Virus record (IMG/VR): IMGVR_UViG_3300010412_000002 | Location: 1-64,000 of that record | Length of the DNA stretch: 64,000 nucleotides | Strand: one strand, 5' to 3' | Source of the DNA: a virus | Part shown: positions 10,799 through 37,135 of the stretch, in pieces | Numbering within the stretch: position 1 is the stretch's first letter | How the letters are laid out: every line of letters begins with the position of its first letter | Position numbers and translations under genes: made by a program | The notes under the pieces: generated by a model | The model's input: the letters and a program-made list of their open reading frames with translations, nothing else | Told to the model about the DNA's origin: nothing | Databases searched by the model: none

Positions 10799-11878
10799 TT
10801 ACTTCGTCCTCCGTGTGGAGAGTGCTCTGTCGAGACCCCCAGATTTCGAAGAACGACGAAAAAAGGCTAGAGTATCGTCTACTAAGGTCCTCCCTGGTCC
10901 TGATTTTCTGTCTTGGTTCTTGCCTCCTTCGAAAGTTTTCCATCGAGAAACAAGATTTGACAAGTTAATACCAATTCGAGATCGAAGTTTAGGGGAAAGA
11001 CCACTAAAGTTCGTTACTATTTCGTCTACGATTTGTTTAACGTTTTGACGATCTTGGTTTGTACCTACTTTCATGATAAGATACCGAATACCATCTGCTG
11101 GATTTTGGGTATACTTTTTAACATCCTGATTATAGGAAGAAACTGCTCCGACAACTGGATTTAAGGACCGATCCAATCGAGCAATTACTGCCGAGATACT
11201 ATCATACAAGCCAAGGATATAGTGCGTAAGCATTGCTCCCAGGCTCGCAAACATTAAATAATCTAAGTGTTCCAGGGGATTAAAGTCGGGTGGATACCCA
11301 TATGCTTGATAAACCAAAGACAAATCTGTGCCAGTAATTGGAGATAGGAATTCAGTAACGGCCCATCGAGCCATCTGAAACTGTCCCAAACCTTGCGCAA
11401 TTGTCAAATAGTTGAGATATGGAATATAATACGCGGCAAAAAATACCCAGAATACTGCTACTAAACGAAAGACCAATAGCATATAATGCCGAGGGTCATT
11501 GGCTTTTTTCTTGTCTAACAAAAAATCAAATGATTGCACAAGTTCGGAAATCTTATGCGCAACCATAATGTTCATTAGTGAGCCACCTAGATTCACTGCA
11601 AAGTGAGTAGTAAATCGAGCAATCGTATTGACTGTCGGTTGTCCTACTGGATGTATACTAGCAGCTAATAAAGCTTCGGCGGCGGAGACCAAGGTAATAA
11701 AGAATAGAACCCACTTTGCGTGCCCTTCAAGAAGAACTTCATTGATGTAATCTCCTGTATTCAACCCACTTTCGTTGATCTTTTTATTCTCGTTATACAA
11801 GAGAAACACAAGAGCTACAACAACTAACAAGGATCCTACAAGTGCAATAGGATCCATAAAAGAAAAGAACTGGTCCAT
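10799..11878 (-). CDS. multi-pass membrane protein
   Basis: Several hydrophobic segments (e.g. IALVGSLLVVVALVFLLY, LLVFRLVAVFWVFFAAYYI) and a soluble basic C-terminus. Confidence 0.65.
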   Translation of the reverse strand: MDQFFSFMDPIALVGSLLVVVALVFLLYNENKKINESGLNTGDYINEVLLEGHAKWVLFFITLVSAAEALLAASIHPVGQPTVNTIARFTTHFAVNLGGSLMNIMVAHKISELVQSFDFLLDKKKANDPRHYMLLVFRLVAVFWVFFAAYYIPYLNYLTIAQGLGQFQMARWAVTEFLSPITGTDLSLVYQAYGYPPDFNPLEHLDYLMFASLGAMLTHYILGLYDSISAVIARLDRSLNPVVGAVSSYNQDVKKYTQNPADGIRYLIMKVGTNQDRQNVKQIVDEIVTNFSGLSPKLRSRIGINLSNLVSRWKTFEGGKNQDRKSGPGRTLVDDTLAFFRRSSKSGGLDRALSTRRTK

Positions 11879-20851: not shown

Positions 20852-20912
20852 TCGGTTGGGTGAGATTCGAACTCACACAGTGCATGCGTGGCAAGCATGC
20901 CCACATTCTCCG
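20852..20912 (-). tRNA. tRNA-Gly(GCC)-like element lacking a D-arm (pseudo-tRNA or 3' fragment)
   Basis: Anticodon arm GCATGC-TTGCCAC-GCATGC, T-arm GTGAG-TTCGAAT-CTCAC, then CCAACCG; no canonical 5' acceptor strand or D-arm. Confidence 0.5.
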
Positions 20913-20919
20913 GCACATC

Positions 20920-22386
20920 CTACTTTTTTCTGATTTGACTTTGCCGAGTCGGAATAGAAATTGTGGTCTTTTTAGTAGCCACTTCTTTCAGAGCTTGTTC
21001 GAGGCCAGCTTGGGTAATACCCGAGTTGACGATTAGCTCAAATACGGAGCTCGTGAGGTACGTCCGCCCTTCTTGAATTTCTCCGCTAAGGATTTGCGGG
21101 GGCTTGACGATATCTGCGAGCTCATTGTACAGGCTCAATGCTTCCGAAGTCGTTAGCTCCGGAAAGTTCAGGGTTACACTCTTCCTGCCAGGCCGTAGGA
21201 TATCTGCTGGTACCTTGTCCAGGTCACGATTGACGGACAATACCAGTACGCATCGCATGTGCTTTTTGAGTTGGCCGTCCATGAGGGACAGTAGCGATTG
21301 CGTAAGATCCGTATTTTCCAAAACACCGACCGCATCGTCAATGAAGATGACGCGGAGTTTATCGTTGTTATGGCTGGACCAGCTTAGCTGGAGTCTCCGT
21401 CCTTCCGGCCCTACGAAGAGAGCCAGATCATCGCCAGTTCCGTAGATAACTTCGGCTACCTTATCAGGTTGCTTGCCGAGATATTCCTGCAGAAAGGCGA
21501 GGAAAGCAGTTTTGCCGCTGCCAGGGTCACCCTTAATGAAAACGGTGGATTGGTCCTCTATGATGGCTTTGTCCGCCAGGAGTTCCAGAGCTTTTTGTTG
21601 ATCAATGACCCACGTTGTACCGTGGTATTCAAGCTCAAGATTTCGCTGCGAAGTGAGCGGATAATATCCTGTAGTCGGCGGCGCATCAATTTGTTGGACC
21701 ATGAGGCCGTCCATATGATCATACACGTAACGGGAAATGTGGGCGGAGCTTTTGCGCATCTCCTTCCATGTATCGGGCAATCGTGTTTTGGTGATCAAGG
21801 ATTCAATGAAGTCCCTTTTCACCTCGTAACCATTTTGACCGATGAGAAAACATCCCTGTATGATCAGCTTCATGAAGGCTTCACCGGATTGAGTATACCG
21901 GATGTATTGTTTGAAGCCTTCGGGAACGAACGGCTCGGAGACTGGAAGTTCTGCTACCCGGAATGCGAATGTGAAGACTTTCTGTCCTTTCCACACTCGG
22001 AGCAGGCCTGCAACCATATCACTGTCTTTCCGGATTTCGTTCTCGTAAATCCCCCGAATGAGGATTACCCGATCACCAAAGGCTTTGATTTCCTTGATGA
22101 CTTCTTCGAGAACAAAGTTTCCATCCATCAACAGTTCTTGGTTCATATCCCCAGCAGATGCTAACCGCGCGGCTTTCAGCAAGTCTCCAATACTGTACTT
22201 GCTTGGGTCCAGCACTTCTGAGGTAACGGTGCTCAACTGGGGATGGTTACTCCCCAGAAGCTTTTCGAGCAATGCCATGGTGGTGATCTGATTCGACTTA
22301 CGAGCCTGGCGTAAAGACATCCAAGCTACAGCAAGCAAAAGCAAGAATCCAGCCACGATCATGGCGGCGATGGTGTTGTCGCTCAT
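20920..22386 (-). CDS. membrane-anchored AAA+ ATPase
   Basis: N-terminal TM; Walker A GDPGSGKT; Walker B IFIDD; LLSLMDG; arginine finger ILRPGR. Confidence 0.8.
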   Translation of the reverse strand: MSDNTIAAMIVAGFLLLLAVAWMSLRQARKSNQITTMALLEKLLGSNHPQLSTVTSEVLDPSKYSIGDLLKAARLASAGDMNQELLMDGNFVLEEVIKEIKAFGDRVILIRGIYENEIRKDSDMVAGLLRVWKGQKVFTFAFRVAELPVSEPFVPEGFKQYIRYTQSGEAFMKLIIQGCFLIGQNGYEVKRDFIESLITKTRLPDTWKEMRKSSAHISRYVYDHMDGLMVQQIDAPPTTGYYPLTSQRNLELEYHGTTWVIDQQKALELLADKAIIEDQSTVFIKGDPGSGKTAFLAFLQEYLGKQPDKVAEVIYGTGDDLALFVGPEGRRLQLSWSSHNNDKLRVIFIDDAVGVLENTDLTQSLLSLMDGQLKKHMRCVLVLSVNRDLDKVPADILRPGRKSVTLNFPELTTSEALSLYNELADIVKPPQILSGEIQEGRTYLTSSVFELIVNSGITQAGLEQALKEVATKKTTISIPTRQSQIRKK

Positions 22387-31420: not shown

Positions 31421-32109
31421 TGGCGCAATAGTTGGTGGATTTGCATTGGCGGGATCTCGCATAAGATCTCGCATACTTCTTTTTCCCATTTTTCCTTTGG
31501 TATTTCGTCGTACATTGTTTCAAACATCTGGTATGATAAAAGGGCCAGACTGTTATCGACGGATTCACGAATTCCCGGACTCATATCCCGATGAGCTGTT
31601 AAAGCCAAGATAGCTTCCAGCAGGGAAAAGTATTTTCTGTGAAGGTCTGAATCCCCGGCGATTACATTCCAGGAATATCGGAATAAGCTCAATGAGGTAA
31701 ATGCAGGTGGATATACCCTGCTACTCTTTAGAGCCGCCAAAAAGCAGAGGCAATGAAAAGCCTCTGTGAAAATTGGCTTATTCTCTTTTGCGTTGCGTAT
31801 CATGGAGCTTGGAAAACGCCCTGCTTTTAATGTAGCGGATAGGCTTCGGTTTTTCCATATTCGTAGAACCGTTTCGGCCCTGTAGACTGAGACGATAAAT
31901 ATGTATAAGCCCAGTCCCATGACGATTGCAGCTGTGGTTTTTCCGAGTGGTTCGGAATGGTAAAGATTCAGTGCTCCCCATATCAATGCGAAAGTGAGGA
32001 ATACATGTAAAATTACCCAGAGGACCCCTTTAATGGCCTCATTGCGGTGATGCAGGAATGTGAATTCCATTTTTGTTTCTTTTTTCTGGATGAAAGAATT
32101 AGAGAGCAC
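31396..32109 (-). CDS. membrane protein
   Basis: Two N-terminal TM helices. Confidence 0.55.
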   Translation of the reverse strand: MLSNSFIQKKETKMEFTFLHHRNEAIKGVLWVILHVFLTFALIWGALNLYHSEPLGKTTAAIVMGLGLYIFIVSVYRAETVLRIWKNRSLSATLKAGRFPSSMIRNAKENKPIFTEAFHCLCFLAALKSSRVYPPAFTSLSLFRYSWNVIAGDSDLHRKYFSLLEAILALTAHRDMSPGIRESVDNSLALLSYQMFETMYDEIPKEKWEKEVCEILCEIPPMQIHQLLRQCEGSNFS

Positions 32110-32168
32110 TAGGGGGCTCCGGGGAGGATCACCCCCTAGCAGACTCTCCAGAATTGGTTCTTGCCCTG

Positions 32169-32369
32169 TTAGAAAGGTCCTCCTGAGGCTCTTCTGCGCA
32201 TTGCTTTTTTCTTCGCAGGTTTCTTCAGGAATTTCTTCTTAACGTAGCAGCCCCAAAGGAAGCTATAACCAACTTCAGATGCGGAAACACCCTTACGGGC
32301 AGCAAACCGTTCGATTTTGGCTAAAACAACCTCTTCGGCTGTTTGGGTGCGGGATGTGTGCTTTGCCAT
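32169..32369 (-). CDS. small basic protein
   Basis: 66 aa with a K/R-rich C-terminus. Confidence 0.4.
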   Translation of the reverse strand: MAKHTSRTQTAEEVVLAKIERFAARKGVSASEVGYSFLWGCYVKKKFLKKPAKKKAMRRRASGGPF

Positions 32370-32374
32370 GAATT

Positions 32375-32593
32375 TTAGTGATTTAGATTTGGTTGATACA
32401 TAGTTTTTTCAGGGTGGTTAGCCCGAAATGCATCAATCTTCTCCTTATTCATATTCTCCTCTTCCCACCGTATCTGGCTATAGTGTTGGTACATGCGTTG
32501 TTGCATGTCAACTGTTTTAACTGGATACATTGGGTAGCTAGGCTTACCACAACTCGCTACAAGAACCACGACTAAAATTATCAAGGTTCTCAT
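32375..32593 (-). CDS. small lipoprotein
   Basis: MRTLIILVVVLVAS-C lipobox; start 32593. Confidence 0.55.
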   Translation of the reverse strand: MRTLIILVVVLVASCGKPSYPMYPVKTVDMQQRMYQHYSQIRWEEENMNKEKIDAFRANHPEKTMYQPNLNH

Positions 32594-32706
32594 AAAAATG
32601 GGTTTAAAACACGCCGTCCGTCGCTGGCGGAACAAACATTCCTCAATCTCATCATCATGAAAATTGGGACGACTGTAATGTAGCTTTTATGGACGGCGCA
32701 AACTTT

Positions 32707-33060
32707 TTAATACGGTTCTGCAAGTATTTTCATTATCAGTACAAATAACACAATCATCTGTACCAATAAAGCCGCAATAGTTGCATATGCGGCGTCAGTA
32801 ACTTTTCTCTTGCTCTTATATGAGCTTATTACCATTGTGTAAACGCTGGTTCCGAAGGTTAACCCTGAACTCACCATTAATACGACTGGAATGTCAAGAG
32901 ACATATACAACCATATTAACGGTGAGATTAGAGCACCTATGCCTGAAACTAGAAAAATAGTTCCATAGGCCAGTCTGGTAAGCGAGTTCATTTTACCTGT
33001 TGCCGGACCACTGCTGCGATGGCAGATTGGTATGCCTTTTCCTTGTGCTTTTTCAGCCAT
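32707..33060 (-). CDS. small membrane protein
   Basis: Three hydrophobic segments; the start is probably 32991. Confidence 0.5.
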   Translation of the reverse strand: MAEKAQGKGIPICHRSSGPATGKMNSLTRLAYGTIFLVSGIGALISPLIWLYMSLDIPVVLMVSSGLTFGTSVYTMVISSYKSKRKVTDAAYATIAALLVQMIVLFVLIMKILAEPY

Positions 33061-33380
33061 TCAAAGGCTGAATTGATCCGGCCGATTTCTCCGTGCAAGG
33101 CGTTCAAGCGGGCCTGTTGGCTCGGGATACGGTCTTTTACCGGAATTGCCCGAAGAAAATTTTTCTTTTCGACGTGGTTGGCCAGGATGGCATGTTGGGT
33201 CTCAACATAGGCGTGGATTTCCTCAGTAGACATATCCGCGAAAATGTACTTCCAGCGGTTTTTTACTCGGGTTCTGCGAGTGATTCCGCGGTCATGAACA
33301 ATAATCGTTCCTTTTCCCTGAGAAGGGGCGATAGACATCGGTCGACGCGTCATGGTTATGATGATTTGATGAATAATCAA
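32988..33380 (-). CDS. hypothetical protein
   Basis: ORF in the operon. Confidence 0.45.
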   Translation of the reverse strand: MIIHQIIITMTRRPMSIAPSQGKGTIIVHDRGITRRTRVKNRWKYIFADMSTEEIHAYVETQHAILANHVEKKNFLRAIPVKDRIPSQQARLNALHGEIGRINSAFEWLKKHKEKAYQSAIAAVVRQQVK

Positions 33381-33440
33381 AAGGGTGGGAGCCCCGGTTT
33401 CCCTGAGGGAGGAGCGTGGTGCTCTAGGGCTCCCAAATGG

Positions 33441-34025
33441 TCACTGTATTTGCTTCTTTAGAGTGATTGCTGCAGTGGTGTCTACAGGTTCGAAGAGATT
33501 TACTCTCCAACCTCTGTCTGGGCACTGCTTTCCGGTACAGCCCTCATGAAATATGAGATCTGGTTCTGGGAGCAGTTTGTCCAGAGCCCATAACAACGCA
33601 TCTAATGATGCAATTGTCTGTGCTCGGTAGTCTTCGCTACAACTATCACGAATTTCACAGAGTTCTATCCCTACCCCATCCTTGTTGCAATCTTTCCCAG
33701 CATGCCAGGTGATTGCACTTATTGGATAGTGCTGATAGATGGTATCCCCACAAATTGTGAAGTGCCATGACACCTCACGTTTTGTAGTATCCATATAGAT
33801 TCTGTGAAACTCGGCGCCAGCGTACCAATTGTAGTTCTTTGTGCTATGAAGAACCACGTTGGTTTTCTGGCTACCTCCTGAAGTTCGTTCTGATGGCCCT
33901 GGCACATACTTATACACAATTTGTGGTTGTGTATCAATAACAGGGTAATTATATATAACTGTGTCTCGACGCAGAAATGCGACAACACAGCCCATCACGA
34001 ATAGGTAAGCGAATAACCATTTCAT
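33441..34025 (-). CDS. N-acetylmuramoyl-L-alanine amidase (Amidase_2) with N-terminal TM
   Basis: VVLHST, SWHFTI, TWHAG, GIELC, FHE and KQCP zinc-amidase motifs; start MKWLF at 34025. Confidence 0.85.
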   Translation of the reverse strand: MKWLFAYLFVMGCVVAFLRRDTVIYNYPVIDTQPQIVYKYVPGPSERTSGGSQKTNVVLHSTKNYNWYAGAEFHRIYMDTTKREVSWHFTICGDTIYQHYPISAITWHAGKDCNKDGVGIELCEIRDSCSEDYRAQTIASLDALLWALDKLLPEPDLIFHEGCTGKQCPDRGWRVNLFEPVDTTAAITLKKQIQ

Positions 34026-34039
34026 AAGCAATTGTTTAG

Positions 34040-34216
34040 AGATCGTGGAGGGAATCGAACCCTCGACCACGGTTTTTCACGCCGTTACTCTACCGGACCT
34101 ATGCAGTCTAAAGCACTTAATGTTAGGTAAGCGTCGCTTCCAACCTTTCATTATTAGATGCATAGTAGGAAATAAGTAATCAACTGATTTCCTTAATCAC
34201 TCTGAGCTACACGATC
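34040..34216 (-). tRNA. tRNA-Phe(GAA)-like RNA with an insertion of about 105 nt in the D-loop
   Basis: Acceptor GATCGTG/CACGATC; TA; D-stem GCTC/GAGT; anticodon arm ACGGC-GTGAAAA-ACCGT; variable GGTC; T-arm GAGGG-TTCGATT-CCCTC; the D-loop spans 113 nt. Confidence 0.75.
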
Positions 34217-34238
34217 CTTTTCGGTAGTGTGCGTGGAA

Positions 34239-34556
34239 TCAACATCGTTCATGGTATTGTTCATATTTACCTTGACAGGTAAACACGGTTACTGGTCTGA
34301 AAGTGTAGATTACTTCCCACCAAACCAGATTTTTGATCCTTCGGAAGTTTTCCGATACCTCTACACATTCGCACATTGCGTCAAATCTGTCTGTTTCATC
34401 AACTTCAGGATTTGCAGTGTGTGAGATTCGGATTTGGTCTCCCTGTTCATAGATATTCTTGATATCTTTGAGGGTTTCACCCTCAATTTTATCTATGAAC
34501 ATAATCATTTCCATGTTCGTATGTTCCACGTGGATAAAAGCTGCGAACTTTACCAT
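34239..34556 (-). CDS. hypothetical protein
   Basis: 105-aa ORF. Confidence 0.45.
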   Translation of the reverse strand: MVKFAAFIHVEHTNMEMIMFIDKIEGETLKDIKNIYEQGDQIRISHTANPEVDETDRFDAMCECVEVSENFRRIKNLVWWEVIYTFRPVTVFTCQGKYEQYHERC

Positions 34557-34672
34557 ATGTGTATGAATTAGTTGTGTGGGAAGGGGGCTCGGCTGCTACC
34601 ATGTCTAGCTGGCAACTAGACTGCATATACCCGTAGGTTTTTGCCGAGCCCAAATAGCTCTGATCTGGAAAG

Positions 34673-34930
34673 CTATATCTTCTTTGGGTTGCTTATGGCC
34701 AAGATATCTTCTGCAGGAACTGCCACTGTGTCTGATGCATATCCATCTTCTACAGCAAAGATATCGTTTTCCTCTTCATCTTCTTCTTTTGTTTCAACGC
34801 TAGGAAATACATCTACGAATCCGCAGATGATTATTTCTTCTCGAAACAATTTCTTTATTCCGTGACCAGAGTAACATATTCCATGTGTTACTCCTGCAAC
34901 TCCGTTGAATTGTACGGTGTATATATACAT
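34673..34930 (-). CDS. hypothetical acidic protein
   Basis: 85-aa ORF. Confidence 0.45.
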   Translation of the reverse strand: MYIYTVQFNGVAGVTHGICYSGHGIKKLFREEIIICGFVDVFPSVETKEEDEEENDIFAVEDGYASDTVAVPAEDILAISNPKKI

Positions 34931-35003
34931 TTTCTTAGAGATTGGTTTTGATTTAATTGGGGAGACGACCTAAATCGTCCCCCCTGAGCGACATGGGATT
35001 GGT

Positions 35004-35525
35004 CTATTCCATGCCACTCTGCCCAAACACGGTGAGCTCAATGCAGTGCATGAGCATCATCCGCTCCAATTTTGCAATTCGCCCCAGACGGAAATGGCTA
35101 CGGGCGTATTTTATCGACCTGCGGTATCTTCTCACAATCCGATGATCTCCCGGGTAGTTTGCTGCCATGTACATGCCAAGCATTGAGGTTTGATATTCCT
35201 TGATGTGTGCAGTTACGTAGTTTGCGATTTGCTGTTCCCGGATCATGCCAAGTTCTTGCATCCTGTCTACCAAACGGGTAGACAAAATGAGCATTGCATC
35301 TGGGTAATAGAACAGTTCCAGGAATTTGTCGGTTGGAGCAAAAGATAGACGTCTTTCTGTTTGATAAAAGACATCCAGATTCGCGCTTTCATTAAACAAG
35401 CGCGTTTCATACGAAGACAATGCGATTATATTGGCCATTTTTAATGGAGGTTGGTGACTCGTTAAAAGAGAGGACAACATAAATGCTGCCCTCTCCGAAG
35501 GAAATTCCCAGGTTATACTGCTCAT
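35004..35525 (-). CDS. hypothetical protein
   Basis: Probable start MSSITW overlaps the stop of the upstream gene. Confidence 0.5.
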   Translation of the reverse strand: MSSITWEFPSERAAFMLSSLLTSHQPPLKMANIIALSSYETRLFNESANLDVFYQTERRLSFAPTDKFLELFYYPDAMLILSTRLVDRMQELGMIREQQIANYVTAHIKEYQTSMLGMYMAANYPGDHRIVRRYRRSIKYARSHFRLGRIAKLERMMLMHCIELTVFGQSGME

Positions 35526-35776
35526 GATTGGGAATCTTCTTCTTGTTTTTTTGGTTCGTCCGGTTTGTATAGCATCGTATGAATTTCTCCGCCTGCGCAG
35601 CACATGACGCACCAGATGGTGATCATGAGCGCCCATAATACGGTGCTTCGTCCTACTTCATACCAGTCCCATCCTGTAAAGAGGGTGAAGGTAAGACACA
35701 CAAATATTCCAAACATAATTGGAATGGCATGGATGACAACAACAGTTGCCATAAATGCCCAAAATGAACTTTTCAT
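35522..35776 (-). CDS. small membrane protein
   Basis: Two TM helices; preceded by the repeated leader motif. Confidence 0.55.
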   Translation of the reverse strand: MKSSFWAFMATVVVIHAIPIMFGIFVCLTFTLFTGWDWYEVGRSTVLWALMITIWCVMCCAGGEIHTMLYKPDEPKKQEEDSQS

Positions 35777-35965
35777 ATCTTTAGGAGGTTGATTACAAAC
35801 GAAGAGAGGCTTGCCTAAGGCCTCTGTTGCACCAGTTTTTTACTGTGTGCTCCTCTTACTAACATCTCAGCACCGTGTCTGCAATGGGCACACGACCCAT
35901 CTCACGGCGTTAGTAAGGACTCCGGCTAATGAAAGCCAAAGGATTAGTCAACCCCCTGTTGATTC

Positions 35966-36379
35966 TTAGAATAGGTTTATGATGTCTTTTGCGCTTTCCT
36001 TTTGGAGACGATCATAAAAGTACCTAATTTGGCTCTGGATGTCTTGATCGGTAACAAGAAGCTTTAACAGGTCTTTGGGGGTGTAATACCTGTAGCTTTC
36101 TGTAAATGGCATAACATATACTGTGTATCCGTGACTATTCCACAAAGGATTAACCCGGATGGTCTTTACGCCATTACAGATGTCTGCGTAATCATTCTTG
36201 TGTAGCTGGAATGGAATGAACAACATGTTTAAGATTATGTGCATCATTCTCTCCAATTCTTCGTTGCTACGTGAGGTAAAGAATGGTTCCCCGTGCTCAT
36301 ACAATTTGACGAGCATGTCTGCGGTTAAGAGTAGATTAGTAATACTCTTTATCCTGCGCGGTATAATATATTGTCCCAT
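35966..36379 (-). CDS. hypothetical protein
   Basis: 137 aa; preceded by the repeated leader motif. Confidence 0.55.
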   Translation of the reverse strand: MGQYIIPRRIKSITNLLLTADMLVKLYEHGEPFFTSRSNEELERMMHIILNMLFIPFQLHKNDYADICNGVKTIRVNPLWNSHGYTVYVMPFTESYRYYTPKDLLKLLVTDQDIQSQIRYFYDRLQKESAKDIINLF

Positions 36380-36464
36380 TGTTTAGGAGTTGGTTACAGA
36401 GAAGAAGGGCCTGCTTGGGTTGCCGTGTCTTTTGACTTGGAACTTACACAGGCCCTTTGGGGTG

Positions 36465-36659
36465 TTATTCTTTTATGTCTAAACTTGCGAAGAGACATAA
36501 AAGAAAGAACACGAATGATGGAATTGAAATGAGACAAAATCCCACGAGCCAGATTTTAAATGGCTCAGCATCCGGAAAGATACAGGGACCTGACATTCCA
36601 AAGAGTGTCGTTAGGATGAAGATTGCTGCGAGCACACGCAGCCAAAGTTTCCTTTTCAT
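36465..36659 (-). CDS. small two-TM protein
   Basis: 64 aa; preceded by the repeated leader motif. Confidence 0.55.
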   Translation of the reverse strand: MKRKLWLRVLAAIFILTTLFGMSGPCIFPDAEPFKIWLVGFCLISIPSFVFFLLCLFASLDIKE

Positions 36660-36742
36660 ATCTTAAAGGGAGTTGATGACAAAGGGTAAGAGAGCAACAC
36701 CTAATTAATCTCACGAAAAATAGAGTGCGCTCTCTTGTTCTC

Positions 36743-37135
36743 TTACTTGTTTTGCATCTTTTCTTGCAGCTTTTGGGCTGCAGATGCAATAAACTTTTCA
36801 CGAGCAGTTGTGCTTGTACAGATCGCAAGTAGAGCGTATTTCAGCTCACATTTACTGCAATCATCACCTGGTTCTGCGACAAGTATAAATCCGTTTTTAT
36901 CTTTTAGGCTGAAGTGCTTATATGCACTGCCTGTGTGGATTACTACGGATTCAATTGTGTGTAATTCCATGAACTCTTTCCATACTTTGGAGAGTTCATG
37001 CCAGAGATTGTCATACTGCAATGCAGGCATGTTAATCTCAGTTAGGACTATGGCGAGAGCATGTGCTCTCCTTAAGAGCGCGTCCACATCTCTACTAGCC
37101 ATTTCCTTGAAAGTGTCGGACCAATCAAATGTCAT
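36743..37135 (-). CDS. hypothetical protein
   Basis: 130 aa; preceded by the repeated leader motif. Confidence 0.55.
   Translation of the reverse strand: MTFDWSDTFKEMASRDVDALLRRAHALAIVLTEINMPALQYDNLWHELSKVWKEFMELHTIESVVIHTGSAYKHFSLKDKNGFILVAEPGDDCSKCELKYALLAICTSTTAREKFIASAAQKLQEKMQNK

What the first reader, a model, noticed from the sequence alone, without database searches (positions are those of the whole stretch)
34040..34216. tRNA-Phe(GAA) scaffold carrying a structured domain of about 105 nt in its D-loop
Seen: all cloverleaf parts are present in order: a 7-bp acceptor stem GATCGTG/CACGATC, U8-A9, D-stem GCTC/GAGT with loop ends AG...GGTA, anticodon loop GT-GAA-AA and a canonical T-arm. 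The D-loop, however, is 113 nt. The insert folds independently into hairpin AGGAAAT-C-AGT..ACT-T-ATTTCCT and a long stem CTATGCA/TGCATAG, TCTAA/TTAGA, TAATG/CATTA, AGGT/ACCT, AAGC/GCTT. No CCA is encoded (the 3' end is TCTA) and there is a C-A mismatch next to the anticodon loop. Known: bacterial tRNA introns are much larger group I/II introns, and D-loop introns are mainly an archaeal BHB feature. Inference: a tRNA-chimeric ncRNA (cargo domain matured by RNase P/Z, a decoy for anticodon nucleases, or a ribosome-targeting mimic) or a new small intron type. tRNA finders would likely miss it.
Basis: partly seen in the sequence, partly recalled or inferred. Interest (0 to 1): 0.85.

Follow-up and report, generated by a model that had tools for sequence, protein, structure and literature searches.

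The report
Phage tRNA-Phe gene with D-loop insert
The only tRNA gene of a 107-kb crAss-like phage is a well-preserved phenylalanine tRNA whose D-loop carries a 107-base self-folding insert. No known bacterial pathway would remove it, and no relative could be fetched to show whether it is conserved.

Summary
On the minus strand (34216 to 34040) lies a complete tRNA-Phe(GAA) cloverleaf with a 113-nt D-loop. ARAGORN and Rfam miss it as it stands. Deleting about 105 nt in silico gives a tRNA-Phe call with a typical score. The 107-nt insert sits between G15 and G18, the variable, solvent-exposed part of the D-loop. It folds alone into two hairpins (z = -3.2) and has no other copy in the phage. It matches no Rfam family and nothing in the collections I could reach.

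The phage encodes none of the seven RNA-processing protein families I searched for (splicing endonuclease, four RNA-ligase families, Ro60, RNase III). The insert has no archaeal-type splice motif and is too small for a group I intron.

The tRNA core is perfect, but three positions tied to decoding and charging are unusual: G32, a C31·A39 mismatch and U73.

What happens to the insert is unsettled:
- kept as an extra arm of a tRNA-like RNA that also marks a cut site in the operon transcript, about 0.35;
- removed, by splicing or by cutting without rejoining, about 0.30;
- a recently broken gene, about 0.25.

Closer relatives (TerL 60-78% identical) exist, but their DNA was out of reach. The scan has already noted other insert-bearing phage tRNAs on other DNA.

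The parts
34040..34216 (-). Whole interrupted tRNA-Phe(GAA)-type gene, 177 nt. tRNA position 1 is 34216 and discriminator U73 is 34040.
   Evidence: Sequence; cloverleaf in the minimum-energy fold; tRNA-Phe call after in-silico deletion.
34202..34216 (-). 5' exon-like part: acceptor 5' strand GAUCGUG (34216-34210), U8 A9, D-stem 5' strand GCUC (34207-34204), A14 G15.
   Evidence: Pair probabilities: acceptor about 1.0, D-stem about 0.75.
34095..34201 (-). 107-nt AU-rich insert (36% GC) at D-loop positions 16/17. Its exact ends are ambiguous by about 3 nt. It forms a three-way junction.
   Evidence: Alone it folds at -28.8 kcal/mol, z = -3.2 against 500 dinucleotide shuffles (2 fold as well), and lies in the top 6.5% of same-length genomic windows. 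No other copy in the phage. No Rfam match. No match in GenBank phages.
34167..34193 (-). Insert hairpin H1: AGGAAAU-C-AGU / UGAUU loop / ACU-U-AUUUCCU.
   Evidence: Minimum-energy and centroid folds; pair probabilities 0.82-0.89.
34099..34165 (-). Insert hairpin H2, 67 nt. The basal stack is 12 bp (CUAUGCA-UCUAA / UUAGA-C-UGCAUAG). Above it come a 6-nt bulge, a UAAUG/CAUUA helix, an AA/AA loop, AGGU/ACCU, a UGG bulge and AAGC-GAC-GCUU.
   Evidence: Pair probabilities: basal 12 bp 0.92-1.0, middle helices about 0.42, apical helix 0.8-0.89.
34041..34094 (-). 3' exon-like part: G18 G19 U20 A21 (34094-34091), D-stem 3' strand GAGU, A26, anticodon arm (34085-34069; anticodon GAA at 34078-34076), variable loop GGUC, T-arm (34064-34048), acceptor 3' strand CACGAUC (34047-34041).
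   Evidence: Partial RF00005 hit at 34040-34099. T-arm matched by the tmRNA and tRNA models.
34239..34556 (-). Upstream co-oriented ORF (105 aa, orphan). Its stop codon lies 22 nt before tRNA position 1.
   Evidence: ORF list. No homologue among 5.8 billion proteins apart from itself. No PHROG family.
33441..34028 (-). Downstream co-oriented endolysin gene (Amidase_2 type). Its ATG lies 11 nt after the discriminator (12 nt after the last acceptor-stem base).
   Evidence: PHROG endolysin/amidase hits; PF01510 precomputed for P0001; sequence.

Best explanation
**Shown.** This is a genuine tRNA-Phe(GAA)-derived gene and the only tRNA-like gene of a complete 106.6-kb crAss-like phage of a Bacteroidota-type host. 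Its D-loop is interrupted between G15 and G18 by a 107-nt insert. The insert folds on its own into a three-way junction: a weak closing helix, a 27-nt hairpin and a 67-nt hairpin with a 12-bp base. All universal tRNA core residues and the acceptor, D and T stems are intact. The gene lies in the sense direction inside the leftward operon, 22 nt after the preceding ORF and 11 nt before the endolysin ORF.

**Inferred, my preferred mechanism (about 0.35).** The element is co-transcribed with its neighbours and its ends are cut by host RNase P and 3'-processing enzymes. This also severs the mRNA just ahead of the endolysin cistron. The insert is not spliced out. It stays as an extra arm projecting from the variable, solvent-exposed 16/17 region of the D-loop, while G18-G19 and the T-loop still form the tRNA elbow. 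The product would be a stable tRNA-like chimeric RNA whose decoding role is weakened or lost. The arm would serve as a handle or cargo of unknown partner.
For: - **A real tRNA body.** Cloverleaf in the minimum-energy fold. 97 of 256 in-silico deletions give tRNA-Phe, and the variants retested score like an average viral tRNA.
- **A permissive site.** The insert leaves U8, A14, G15:C48, G18, G19, A21, U33, G53-U54-U55-C56, A58 and C61 untouched.
- **More structured than chance.** z = -3.2. H1 and the base of H2 have pair probabilities of 0.85-1.0.
- **No removal route found.** No Rfam intron or ribozyme match. No EndA, RtcB, Rnl1, Rnl2, LigT or RNase III in the phage.
- **Deviations cluster where decoding and charging are set, not in the structural core.** G32 occurs in 9 of 673 viral tRNAs and C31·A39 in 2 of 673. 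The discriminator is U73. The canonical anticodon stem is weak, with pair probability 0.14-0.18.
- **Context.** Distant relatives (TerL 42-52% identical) carry non-decoding acceptor + T-arm minihelices. In several loci these lie within about 60 nt of the next co-oriented ORF, between 5 and 60 nt. In this operon the other gene gaps hold stem-loops in the same slot.
- **Size is tolerated.** A 183-nt aptamer-tRNA fusion works in translation, so large tRNA arms can be tolerated in principle (PMC5397188).
Against: - A Spinach aptamer inserted at the same place (D-loop, between 16 and 18) of E. coli tRNA-Tyr gave no detectable RNA in cells. The V-loop fusion was stable (PMC5397188).
- The closing helix is weak (0.26-0.43).
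- The anticodon loop still reads a good Phe loop at 6 of 7 positions, and bacterial-type tRNA-Phe features are present: G10, U20, A26, G44, U59, U60. This fits a decoding tRNA that needs the insert removed.
- There is only one sequence: no homologue, no covariation, no expression data.
- No partner protein such as Ro60/TROVE is encoded.
- The link to the minihelices of distant relatives is an analogy, not homology.
Confidence: 0.35

Rival explanations
1. The insert is an intervening sequence that is removed, giving a working tRNA-Phe. Two routes are possible. (a) An intron: an unknown host endonuclease cuts and an RNA ligase such as host RtcB rejoins the halves, as proposed but never shown for the 'enigmatic' tRNA inserts of Lak megaphages. 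(b) An rRNA-type IVS: RNase III cuts the long H2 stem and nothing rejoins the pieces, leaving a two-piece tRNA held together by the acceptor and D stems.
For: - The insert-deleted sequence is an average-scoring tRNA-Phe with bacterial-type tRNA-Phe features.
- It is the phage's only tRNA, so there is a reason to keep it working.
- Lak phages of Prevotella have 79-114-nt inserts of the same size, with no Rfam match, in tRNA-Phe, Tyr, Thr and Gly (PMC6784885).
- The insert is AU-rich, about 100 nt and a long stem, like 23S rRNA intervening sequences (my own knowledge).
- D-loop aptamer fusions are unstable if retained.
- RtcB and RNase III families are found in the Bacteroides control genome.
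Against: - No self-splicing core or known ribozyme.
- No BHB motif (my inspection of the fold).
- The phage encodes no endonuclease or ligase that I could detect.
- No protein-dependent tRNA splicing pathway is known in Bacteria.
- RNase III cutting in H2 would leave H1 and helix stubs in the D-loop.
- G32, C31·A39 and U73 are poor features for a decoding tRNA-Phe.
- The Lak inserts lie in the anticodon loop and contain T-arm-like motifs. This insert has neither feature.
Confidence: 0.3
2. The gene is recently inactivated. A foreign structured DNA segment, such as a remnant of a mobile element or a recombination product, landed in the D-loop region of a captured tRNA-Phe gene. The locus is decaying, or survives only as a structured spacer.
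For: - It is a singleton. There is no homologue of the insert or of the interrupted gene in IMG/VR, GenBank phages, one JGI pattern scan or GTDB genomes.
- Both flanking genes are orphans in a variable cassette region.
- Three unusual positions (G32, C31·A39, U73) could be early decay.
- The engineered insertion at the same site destroys tRNA accumulation.
Against: - No terminal inverted repeats, no target-site duplication and no second copy in the phage (sequence).
- The insertion falls exactly in one of the few permissive sites of a tRNA.
- About 45 structurally constrained positions are all intact, and the deviations are confined to the anticodon arm and the discriminator.
- The insert is structured beyond chance and returns its ends to the junction.
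- Phage genomes shed useless DNA, and this operon is tightly packed.
Confidence: 0.25
3. The pattern is a chance resemblance or an assembly artefact, and no tRNA-derived gene is there.
For: Standard finders do not call it. Read-level support for the contig could not be examined.
Against: A 7/7 acceptor stem, a 4/4 D-stem, a 5/5 T-stem and all invariant residues are present in the right register. ARAGORN calls it after deletion. Only tandem duplicates mimic this architecture in 2.0 Mb. The contig is a complete genome with direct terminal repeats.
Confidence: 0.02

Closest known systems
'Enigmatic' tRNA introns of Lak megaphages (Devoto et al. 2019, Nat Microbiol, PMC6784885, Table S6)
   Same: Both are in phages of Bacteroidota hosts. 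Both have inserts of 79-114 nt in otherwise good tRNA genes, including tRNA-Phe(GAA). Neither has an Rfam match or a known removal mechanism, and both are missed by bacterial tRNA finders.
   Different: The Lak inserts sit in the anticodon loop (37/38), and the printed examples contain a T-arm-like GGTTCGAWTCC hairpin closed by an acceptor-like stem. This insert sits in the D-loop (16/17), has no T-loop motif and is a two-hairpin junction. The Lak inserts are conserved across cohorts. This one has no known relative.
Archaeal and some eukaryotic non-canonical (BHB) tRNA introns, including D-loop positions
   Same: An intervening sequence outside the anticodon loop of a tRNA gene.
   Different: BHB introns are usually 12-30 nt at non-canonical sites. 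They need a helix-bulge-helix-bulge-helix at the junctions and the EndA endonuclease. Here there is no BHB geometry, no EndA, a 107-nt insert and a bacterial host.
Group I introns in bacterial and phage tRNA genes (tRNA-Leu UAA, tRNA-fMet)
   Same: An interrupted bacterial-type tRNA gene hidden from tRNA finders.
   Different: Those are at least about 200 nt, lie in the anticodon loop and have a P3-P9 catalytic core. No such model matches here even at E = 10, and 107 nt is too small.
Intervening sequences (IVS) of bacterial 23S rRNA, excised by RNase III without rejoining
   Same: Both are about 100 nt, AU-rich, sporadically distributed inserts that replace a loop with an extended stem. The host RNA can still fold around them.
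   Different: These are known only in rRNA. No tRNA example is known to me, RNase III cleavage was not tested, and the extra hairpin H1 would not be removed.
tRNA-like chimeric RNAs: YrlA-type bacterial and phage Y RNAs, MHV68 tRNA-miRNA transcripts, mascRNA, engineered aptamer-tRNA fusions (PMC5397188)
   Same: A tRNA-shaped module is used for processing or stability, joined to another structured RNA domain.
   Different: In those RNAs the added domain replaces the anticodon arm or follows the 3' end. The engineered fusion works only in the V-loop. The YrlA model scores 13.5 bits against a cut-off of 69, and the phage has no TROVE gene.

Membership tests
Canonical tRNA (Rfam RF00005 / ARAGORN) | 7-bp acceptor stem, T-arm with the GTTCRANNC loop, and invariant residues U8, A14, G18, G19, A21, U33, G53, C56, A58, C61 | tested here: met
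   Sequence read. Acceptor and T-stem pair probabilities are about 1.0.
Canonical tRNA (Rfam RF00005 / ARAGORN) | D-loop of 7-11 nt, and a family score above threshold for the intact gene | tested here: not met
   The D-loop is 113 nt. ARAGORN finds 0 genes. RF00005 gives 23.3 bits, below the 29-bit threshold, and the hit is partial.
Canonical tRNA (Rfam RF00005 / ARAGORN) | Scores as a tRNA once the insert is removed | tested here: met
   97 of 256 deletions give tRNA-Phe(gaa). The eight variants retested survive ARAGORN threshold 115%, as do 72% of 854 real tRNAs.
Decoding tRNA-Phe | Anticodon arm of 5 bp with a Y32-U33-GAA-R37-A38 loop, A73 discriminator, chargeable by PheRS | tested here: inconclusive
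   GAA, U33, A37 and A38 are present. But G32 occurs in 1.3% of viral tRNAs and C31·A39 in 0.3%, the discriminator is U73, and the stem is weak. No cellular genome matched the generic Phe pattern with G32, though that scan had no positive control. Charging cannot be tested here.
Group I intron | Catalytic core (P3-P9, G-binding site), length of about 200 nt or more, a match to the Rfam Intron_gpI model | tested here: not met
   No hit even at E = 10 in the region. The insert is 107 nt.
BHB (archaeal-type) tRNA intron | Two 3-nt bulges separated by a 4-bp helix at the splice sites | tested here: not met
   In the folds the only junction pairing is G17-C122 plus GAU/GUC. H2 abuts it directly, with no second 3-nt bulge.
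BHB (archaeal-type) tRNA intron | EndA splicing endonuclease available (archaeal or eukaryotic host, or virus-encoded) | tested here: not met
   PF01974 is absent from the phage. The host is bacterial, judged by the amidase endolysin and by the nearest cultured phages, which infect Cellulophaga and Flavobacterium.
Lak-type 'enigmatic' phage tRNA insert | Insert of about 80-115 nt with no Rfam family, in a tRNA of a Bacteroidota phage | tested here: met
   107 nt, no Rfam match; crAss-like phage; Lak data.
Lak-type 'enigmatic' phage tRNA insert | Located in the anticodon loop (37/38), with an acceptor-like stem plus a T-arm-like hairpin inside the insert | tested here: not met
   The insert is at D-loop 16/17. 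It contains no TTCRANN T-loop hairpin (sequence; one search finds only the tRNA's own T-arm).
Lak-type 'enigmatic' phage tRNA insert | Conserved among related phages | not testable with these tools
   Relatives with TerL 60-78% identical exist.
YrlA / Y RNA | Ro60(Rsr)-binding helix, an RF02553 match, and a TROVE protein gene nearby | tested here: not met
   RF02553 scores 13.5 bits against a cut-off of 69, and only over the T-arm and the region downstream of it. PF05731 is absent from the phage.
tmRNA | tRNA-like ends enclosing a tag reading frame and pseudoknots; called by ARAGORN -m or RF00023 | tested here: not met
   ARAGORN -m finds 0 genes. RF00023 matches only the 18-nt T-arm. The anticodon arm is present.
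rRNA-type IVS (RNase III-excised) | AU-rich extended stem-loop of about 100 nt replacing a loop of a stable RNA | tested here: met
   36% GC. H2 is a 67-nt interrupted stem.
rRNA-type IVS (RNase III-excised) | Cleaved by RNase III in vivo, leaving a fragmented but functional RNA | not testable with these tools
   Needs RNA from infected cells or an in-vitro cleavage assay.

The most novel reading that the evidence does not exclude
A new kind of small tRNA intervening sequence in a bacterial virus. It is a 107-nt ribozyme-less three-way-junction insert at D-loop position 16/17. Host enzymes would excise it, with rejoining, or without rejoining to leave a two-piece tRNA. The result would be the phage's only functional tRNA-Phe, whose unusual anticodon loop (G32, C31·A39) might also protect it from host anticodon nucleases.
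Probability: 0.2. Interest if true: 0.85.

Novelty: new variant of a known kind. Interest (0 to 1): 0.5.

Why it matters
Protein-dependent tRNA splicing is thought to be absent from Bacteria, yet short inserts without a ribozyme keep turning up in phage tRNA genes. This case extends them to the D-loop and to an insert that is not tRNA-shaped.

If the insert is removed, a bacterial or phage RNA cutting and joining pathway remains to be found. If it is kept, it is a natural example of a tRNA used as a scaffold for another RNA domain, at a site where an engineered insertion failed. It could then act in mRNA processing just ahead of the lysis gene, or in phage-host conflict over tRNAs.

In practice, such genes are invisible to ARAGORN and Rfam, so counts of phage tRNAs are too low. 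As a single sequence without expression data, this remains a lead and not a demonstrated system.

Tried and rejected
**Searches for homologues. None were found.**
- Exact 24-mer of the T-arm plus acceptor in IMG/VR: 0 hits.
- Generic D-loop-insert pattern in IMG/VR: 112 hits, all tandem tRNA pairs.
- Specific pattern in JGI metagenomes: 4 hits, all tandem tRNAs.
- A G32 Phe-type 3'-half pattern ending in CACG in IMG/VR, and a full Phe-type pattern with G32 in GTDB genomes: 0 and 0. The first was over-specified by my own choice. The second had no positive control.
- blastn of the element and of the insert alone against GenBank phages: only generic tRNA similarity.
- Flanking proteins: the endolysin and the 105-aa ORF have no homologue but themselves. 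The AAA ATPase has only 37-42% identical relatives, and none of them is in IMG/VR.
- TerL profile in GTDB contigs: nothing.
- Endolysin in 17 related records: nothing.
The contigs of the closest relatives (P0004, P0006, P0009, P0012, P0013) were therefore out of reach.

**Readings rejected.**
- Group I or II intron, or a known ribozyme.
- BHB intron (fold).
- tmRNA and Y RNA.
- A repeated mobile element in this genome.
- Membership in the GC-clamped intergenic hairpin set of this operon. Those are GC-rich 9-10-bp clamps, unlike the AU-rich insert.
- A sigma-70-type promoter or an intrinsic terminator inside the element. By eye, there is also no Bacteroidota TAnnTTTG box.
- The UGGA bulge in H2 is complementary to a U73-CCA end. 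A 4-nt match is expected by chance, so I dropped it.
- Folding with 50-60 nt flanks does not return the cloverleaf. That is common for tRNAs and tells us nothing.

Full report
**Where it is.** The window is the first 64 kb of a complete 106,629-bp IMG/VR phage record with direct terminal repeats. The record encodes a GroEL, a crAss-type large terminase, a portal protein, a major head protein and a family A DNA polymerase. Its terminase is 33% identical to that of Cellulophaga phage phi14:2 and 28-29% identical to those of Flavobacterium phages. Its endolysin is an Amidase_2 enzyme. The host is therefore bacterial and most likely a member of Bacteroidota.

**Checking the observation.** Read on the minus strand, 34216 to 34040 contains every part of a cloverleaf in the right order and register:
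- acceptor GAUCGUG/CACGAUC, 7 Watson-Crick pairs
- U8 A9
- D-stem GCUC/GAGU
- A14 G15 at the start of the D-loop and G18 G19 U20 A21 at its end
- A26
- anticodon arm ACGGC-GUGAAAA-ACCGU
- variable loop GGUC
- T-arm GAGGG-UUCGAUU-CCCUC
- discriminator U, with no CCA encoded

The D-loop is 113 nt. RNAfold gives this cloverleaf plus the two insert hairpins as the minimum-energy structure (-52.6 kcal/mol, z = -2.5). Pair probabilities are about 1.0 for the acceptor and T stems, 0.75 for the D-stem, 0.85 for H1 and 0.92-1.0 for the basal 12 bp of H2. They are only 0.26-0.43 for the short helix that closes the junction.

ARAGORN finds no tRNA in the window or in the whole phage. Rfam's tRNA model gives one partial hit below threshold (23.3 bits) over the 3' 60 nt, which is the only tRNA-like locus in the genome.

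I deleted every interval starting at tRNA position 14-29 and ending at 112-127. The eight variants I retested are still called at ARAGORN threshold 115%, where 618 of 854 real viral tRNAs remain. They are lost at 120%, where 324 remain. The spliced form therefore scores like an average tRNA.

A purpose-built scan of 2.0 Mb of viral DNA recovered 406 ordinary tRNAs. Apart from tandem duplicates, it found one 33-nt D-loop (L052) and only this element with a D-loop over 100 nt.

**The insert.**
- It is 107 nt (34201-34095, ends ambiguous by about 3 nt) and 36% GC.
- Alone it folds at -28.8 kcal/mol, z = -3.2, with 2 of 500 shuffles folding as well. It lies in the top 6.5% of same-length windows of this genome.
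- It has no second copy in the phage, no terminal inverted repeats and no target-site duplication.
- It matches no Rfam family even at E = 10, and nothing in GenBank phages.
- It differs from the GC-clamped hairpins that fill the other gene gaps of this operon.
- It sits between G15 and G18. This is the length-variable 16/17 region, whose bases point into solvent in tRNA crystal structures (established knowledge). None of the tertiary-interaction residues is disturbed.

**What it is not.**
- Not a group I or II intron and not a known self-cleaving ribozyme: no model matches, and it is too small.
- Not a BHB intron: the junction has no second 3-nt bulge, EndA is absent and the host is bacterial.
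- Not a tmRNA or a Y RNA.
- The phage has no detectable RtcB, Rnl1, Rnl2, LigT or RNase III. The control panel shows that Bacteroides has RtcB, RNase III and a TROVE protein.

**Features that bear on function.**
- The structural core is flawless, but the positions that set decoding and charging are unusual. G32 occurs in 9 of 673 unique viral tRNAs and in 1 of 31 tRNA-Phe genes. C31·A39 occurs in 2 of 673. The discriminator is U where tRNA-Phe normally has A (visible in the 31 Phe genes). The canonical anticodon stem is about 1 kcal/mol less stable than a shifted alternative.
- The gene is sense-oriented inside the leftward operon, 22 nt after the stop codon of a 105-aa orphan ORF and 11 nt before the endolysin ATG. 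Ordinary tRNA end-processing would therefore cut the mRNA just ahead of the lysis gene.
- The other gene gaps in this operon carry a stem-loop in the equivalent position, and some share a pyrimidine-rich leader motif.
- Distant relatives (TerL 42-52% identical) carry 42-53-nt elements made only of an acceptor stem and a T-arm. These cannot decode. In several loci they lie within about 60 nt of the next co-oriented ORF, between 5 and 60 nt. This suggests that tRNA-like structures are used as RNA signals in this phage group. That is analogy, not homology.

**Comparison with the literature.**
- Devoto et al. (PMC6784885) reported 79-114-nt 'enigmatic' inserts with no Rfam match in tRNA-Phe, Tyr, Thr and Gly genes of Lak megaphages of Prevotella. 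Those lie in the anticodon loop, and the printed examples contain T-arm-like hairpins. Splicing has not been shown.
- Masuda et al. (PMC5397188) inserted the Spinach aptamer into E. coli tRNA-Tyr. The fusion at the D-loop between 16 and 18, the same site as here, was not detectable in cells. The 183-nt V-loop fusion was stable and active on the ribosome. This counts against simple retention of a D-loop insert, although a natural insert may be adapted to its site.
- Phage tRNAs with altered anticodon loops can escape host anticodon nucleases (PMC10264068; title and abstract listing only). That offers one reading of G32, but I did not test it.

**Earlier notes of this scan.** These are unchecked AI notes. 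They report other insert-bearing tRNAs in crAss-like and large phages, including a tRNA-Phe with a 35-nt anticodon-loop hairpin, a suppressor tRNA with a 50-nt D-loop arm, and tRNA-shaped genes with a Ro-type handle. I tested the Ro lead here and it does not apply. The others are context only.

**Comparative evidence could not be obtained.**
- IMG/VR holds only relatives at 63% or less.
- The single metagenome scan returned tandem tRNAs.
- The two genes flanking the tRNA have no homologue at all among 5.8 billion proteins.
- The endolysin is absent from 17 related records. This part of the genome is therefore variable.

**Verdict.** What is shown is an authentic tRNA-Phe-derived gene carrying a self-contained structured insert at a permissive D-loop site, and no recognisable way to remove it. 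What the cell does with it is inference. I give the following odds:
- about 0.35 that the insert is kept as an extra arm of a tRNA-like RNA whose processing also marks a cut in the operon transcript;
- about 0.30 that it is removed, either as an intron with rejoining or like an rRNA IVS without rejoining;
- about 0.25 that the gene was recently inactivated.

It is a new variant of the known but unexplained class of insert-bearing phage tRNA genes.

Noticed in passing
L204 (1501-1542), L205, L206-L208, L209, L210 (hit coordinates): Distant crAss-like relatives carry 42-53-nt elements made only of a 7-bp acceptor stem, a short linker and a canonical T-arm (for example AAAGCAT...TGCAGGTTCGATTCCTGCATGCTTTA). 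They are co-oriented with the genes, and in several loci they lie within about 60 nt of the next ORF (5-60 nt). They may be RNA-processing signals or ends of larger non-coding RNAs.
   Followed up: partly
L204:537-926 (minus strand of the locus): A full-length GOLLD RNA (RF02032, 222 bits) lies in a crAss-like relative, about 575 nt downstream of one of the tRNA-like minihelices on the same strand.
   Followed up: no
L202:1501-1637 (G010:40255-40391): A 137-nt tRNA (RF00005, 33.4 bits) has about 60 extra nucleotides after the D-arm and anticodon region. By eye it may have a CUA (amber-suppressor-like) loop plus a long extra arm.
   Followed up: no
L128:4815-4909, L131:3330-3401, L133:1270-1367, L153:5897-5992: ARAGORN calls 'tRNA-SeC(tca)' genes of 72-98 nt within the ±10-kb loci around the terminase gene in four relatives. 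They are probably UGA-suppressor tRNAs, which hints at stop-codon recoding in part of this phage group.
   Followed up: no
L052, minus strand, 11080-11176: A tRNA-like gene (anticodon loop ATCCTAA) in a 176-kb IMG/VR contig has a 33-nt D-loop containing a small hairpin. This is a second, shorter case of D-loop expansion.
   Followed up: no
window 32100-36745, minus strand: Most gene gaps of the leftward operon hold a GC-clamped stem-loop (9-10-bp clamp, some with a U-tract). Several genes are preceded by a shared leader AAYCAA-CYCCUAA-N3-4-AUG (35787, 36389, 37145). The endolysin leader after the tRNA (GAUCUCUAAAC) resembles it and overlaps the acceptor 3' strand.
   Followed up: partly
window 20852-21332, minus strand: ARAGORN in intron mode calls a tRNA-Ser(tga) with a 393-nt intron. 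It lies almost entirely inside the 488-aa ORF at 20920-22386 and is probably a false positive.
   Followed up: no
TerL homologues P0022, P0028, P0037, P0047, P0049, P0056 and others: Many terminase genes of related phages are 1010-1140 aa long and carry LAGLIDADG, Hom_end or intein domains. Inteins are therefore common in the TerL of this clade. The window's own TerL (762 aa) has none.
   Followed up: no
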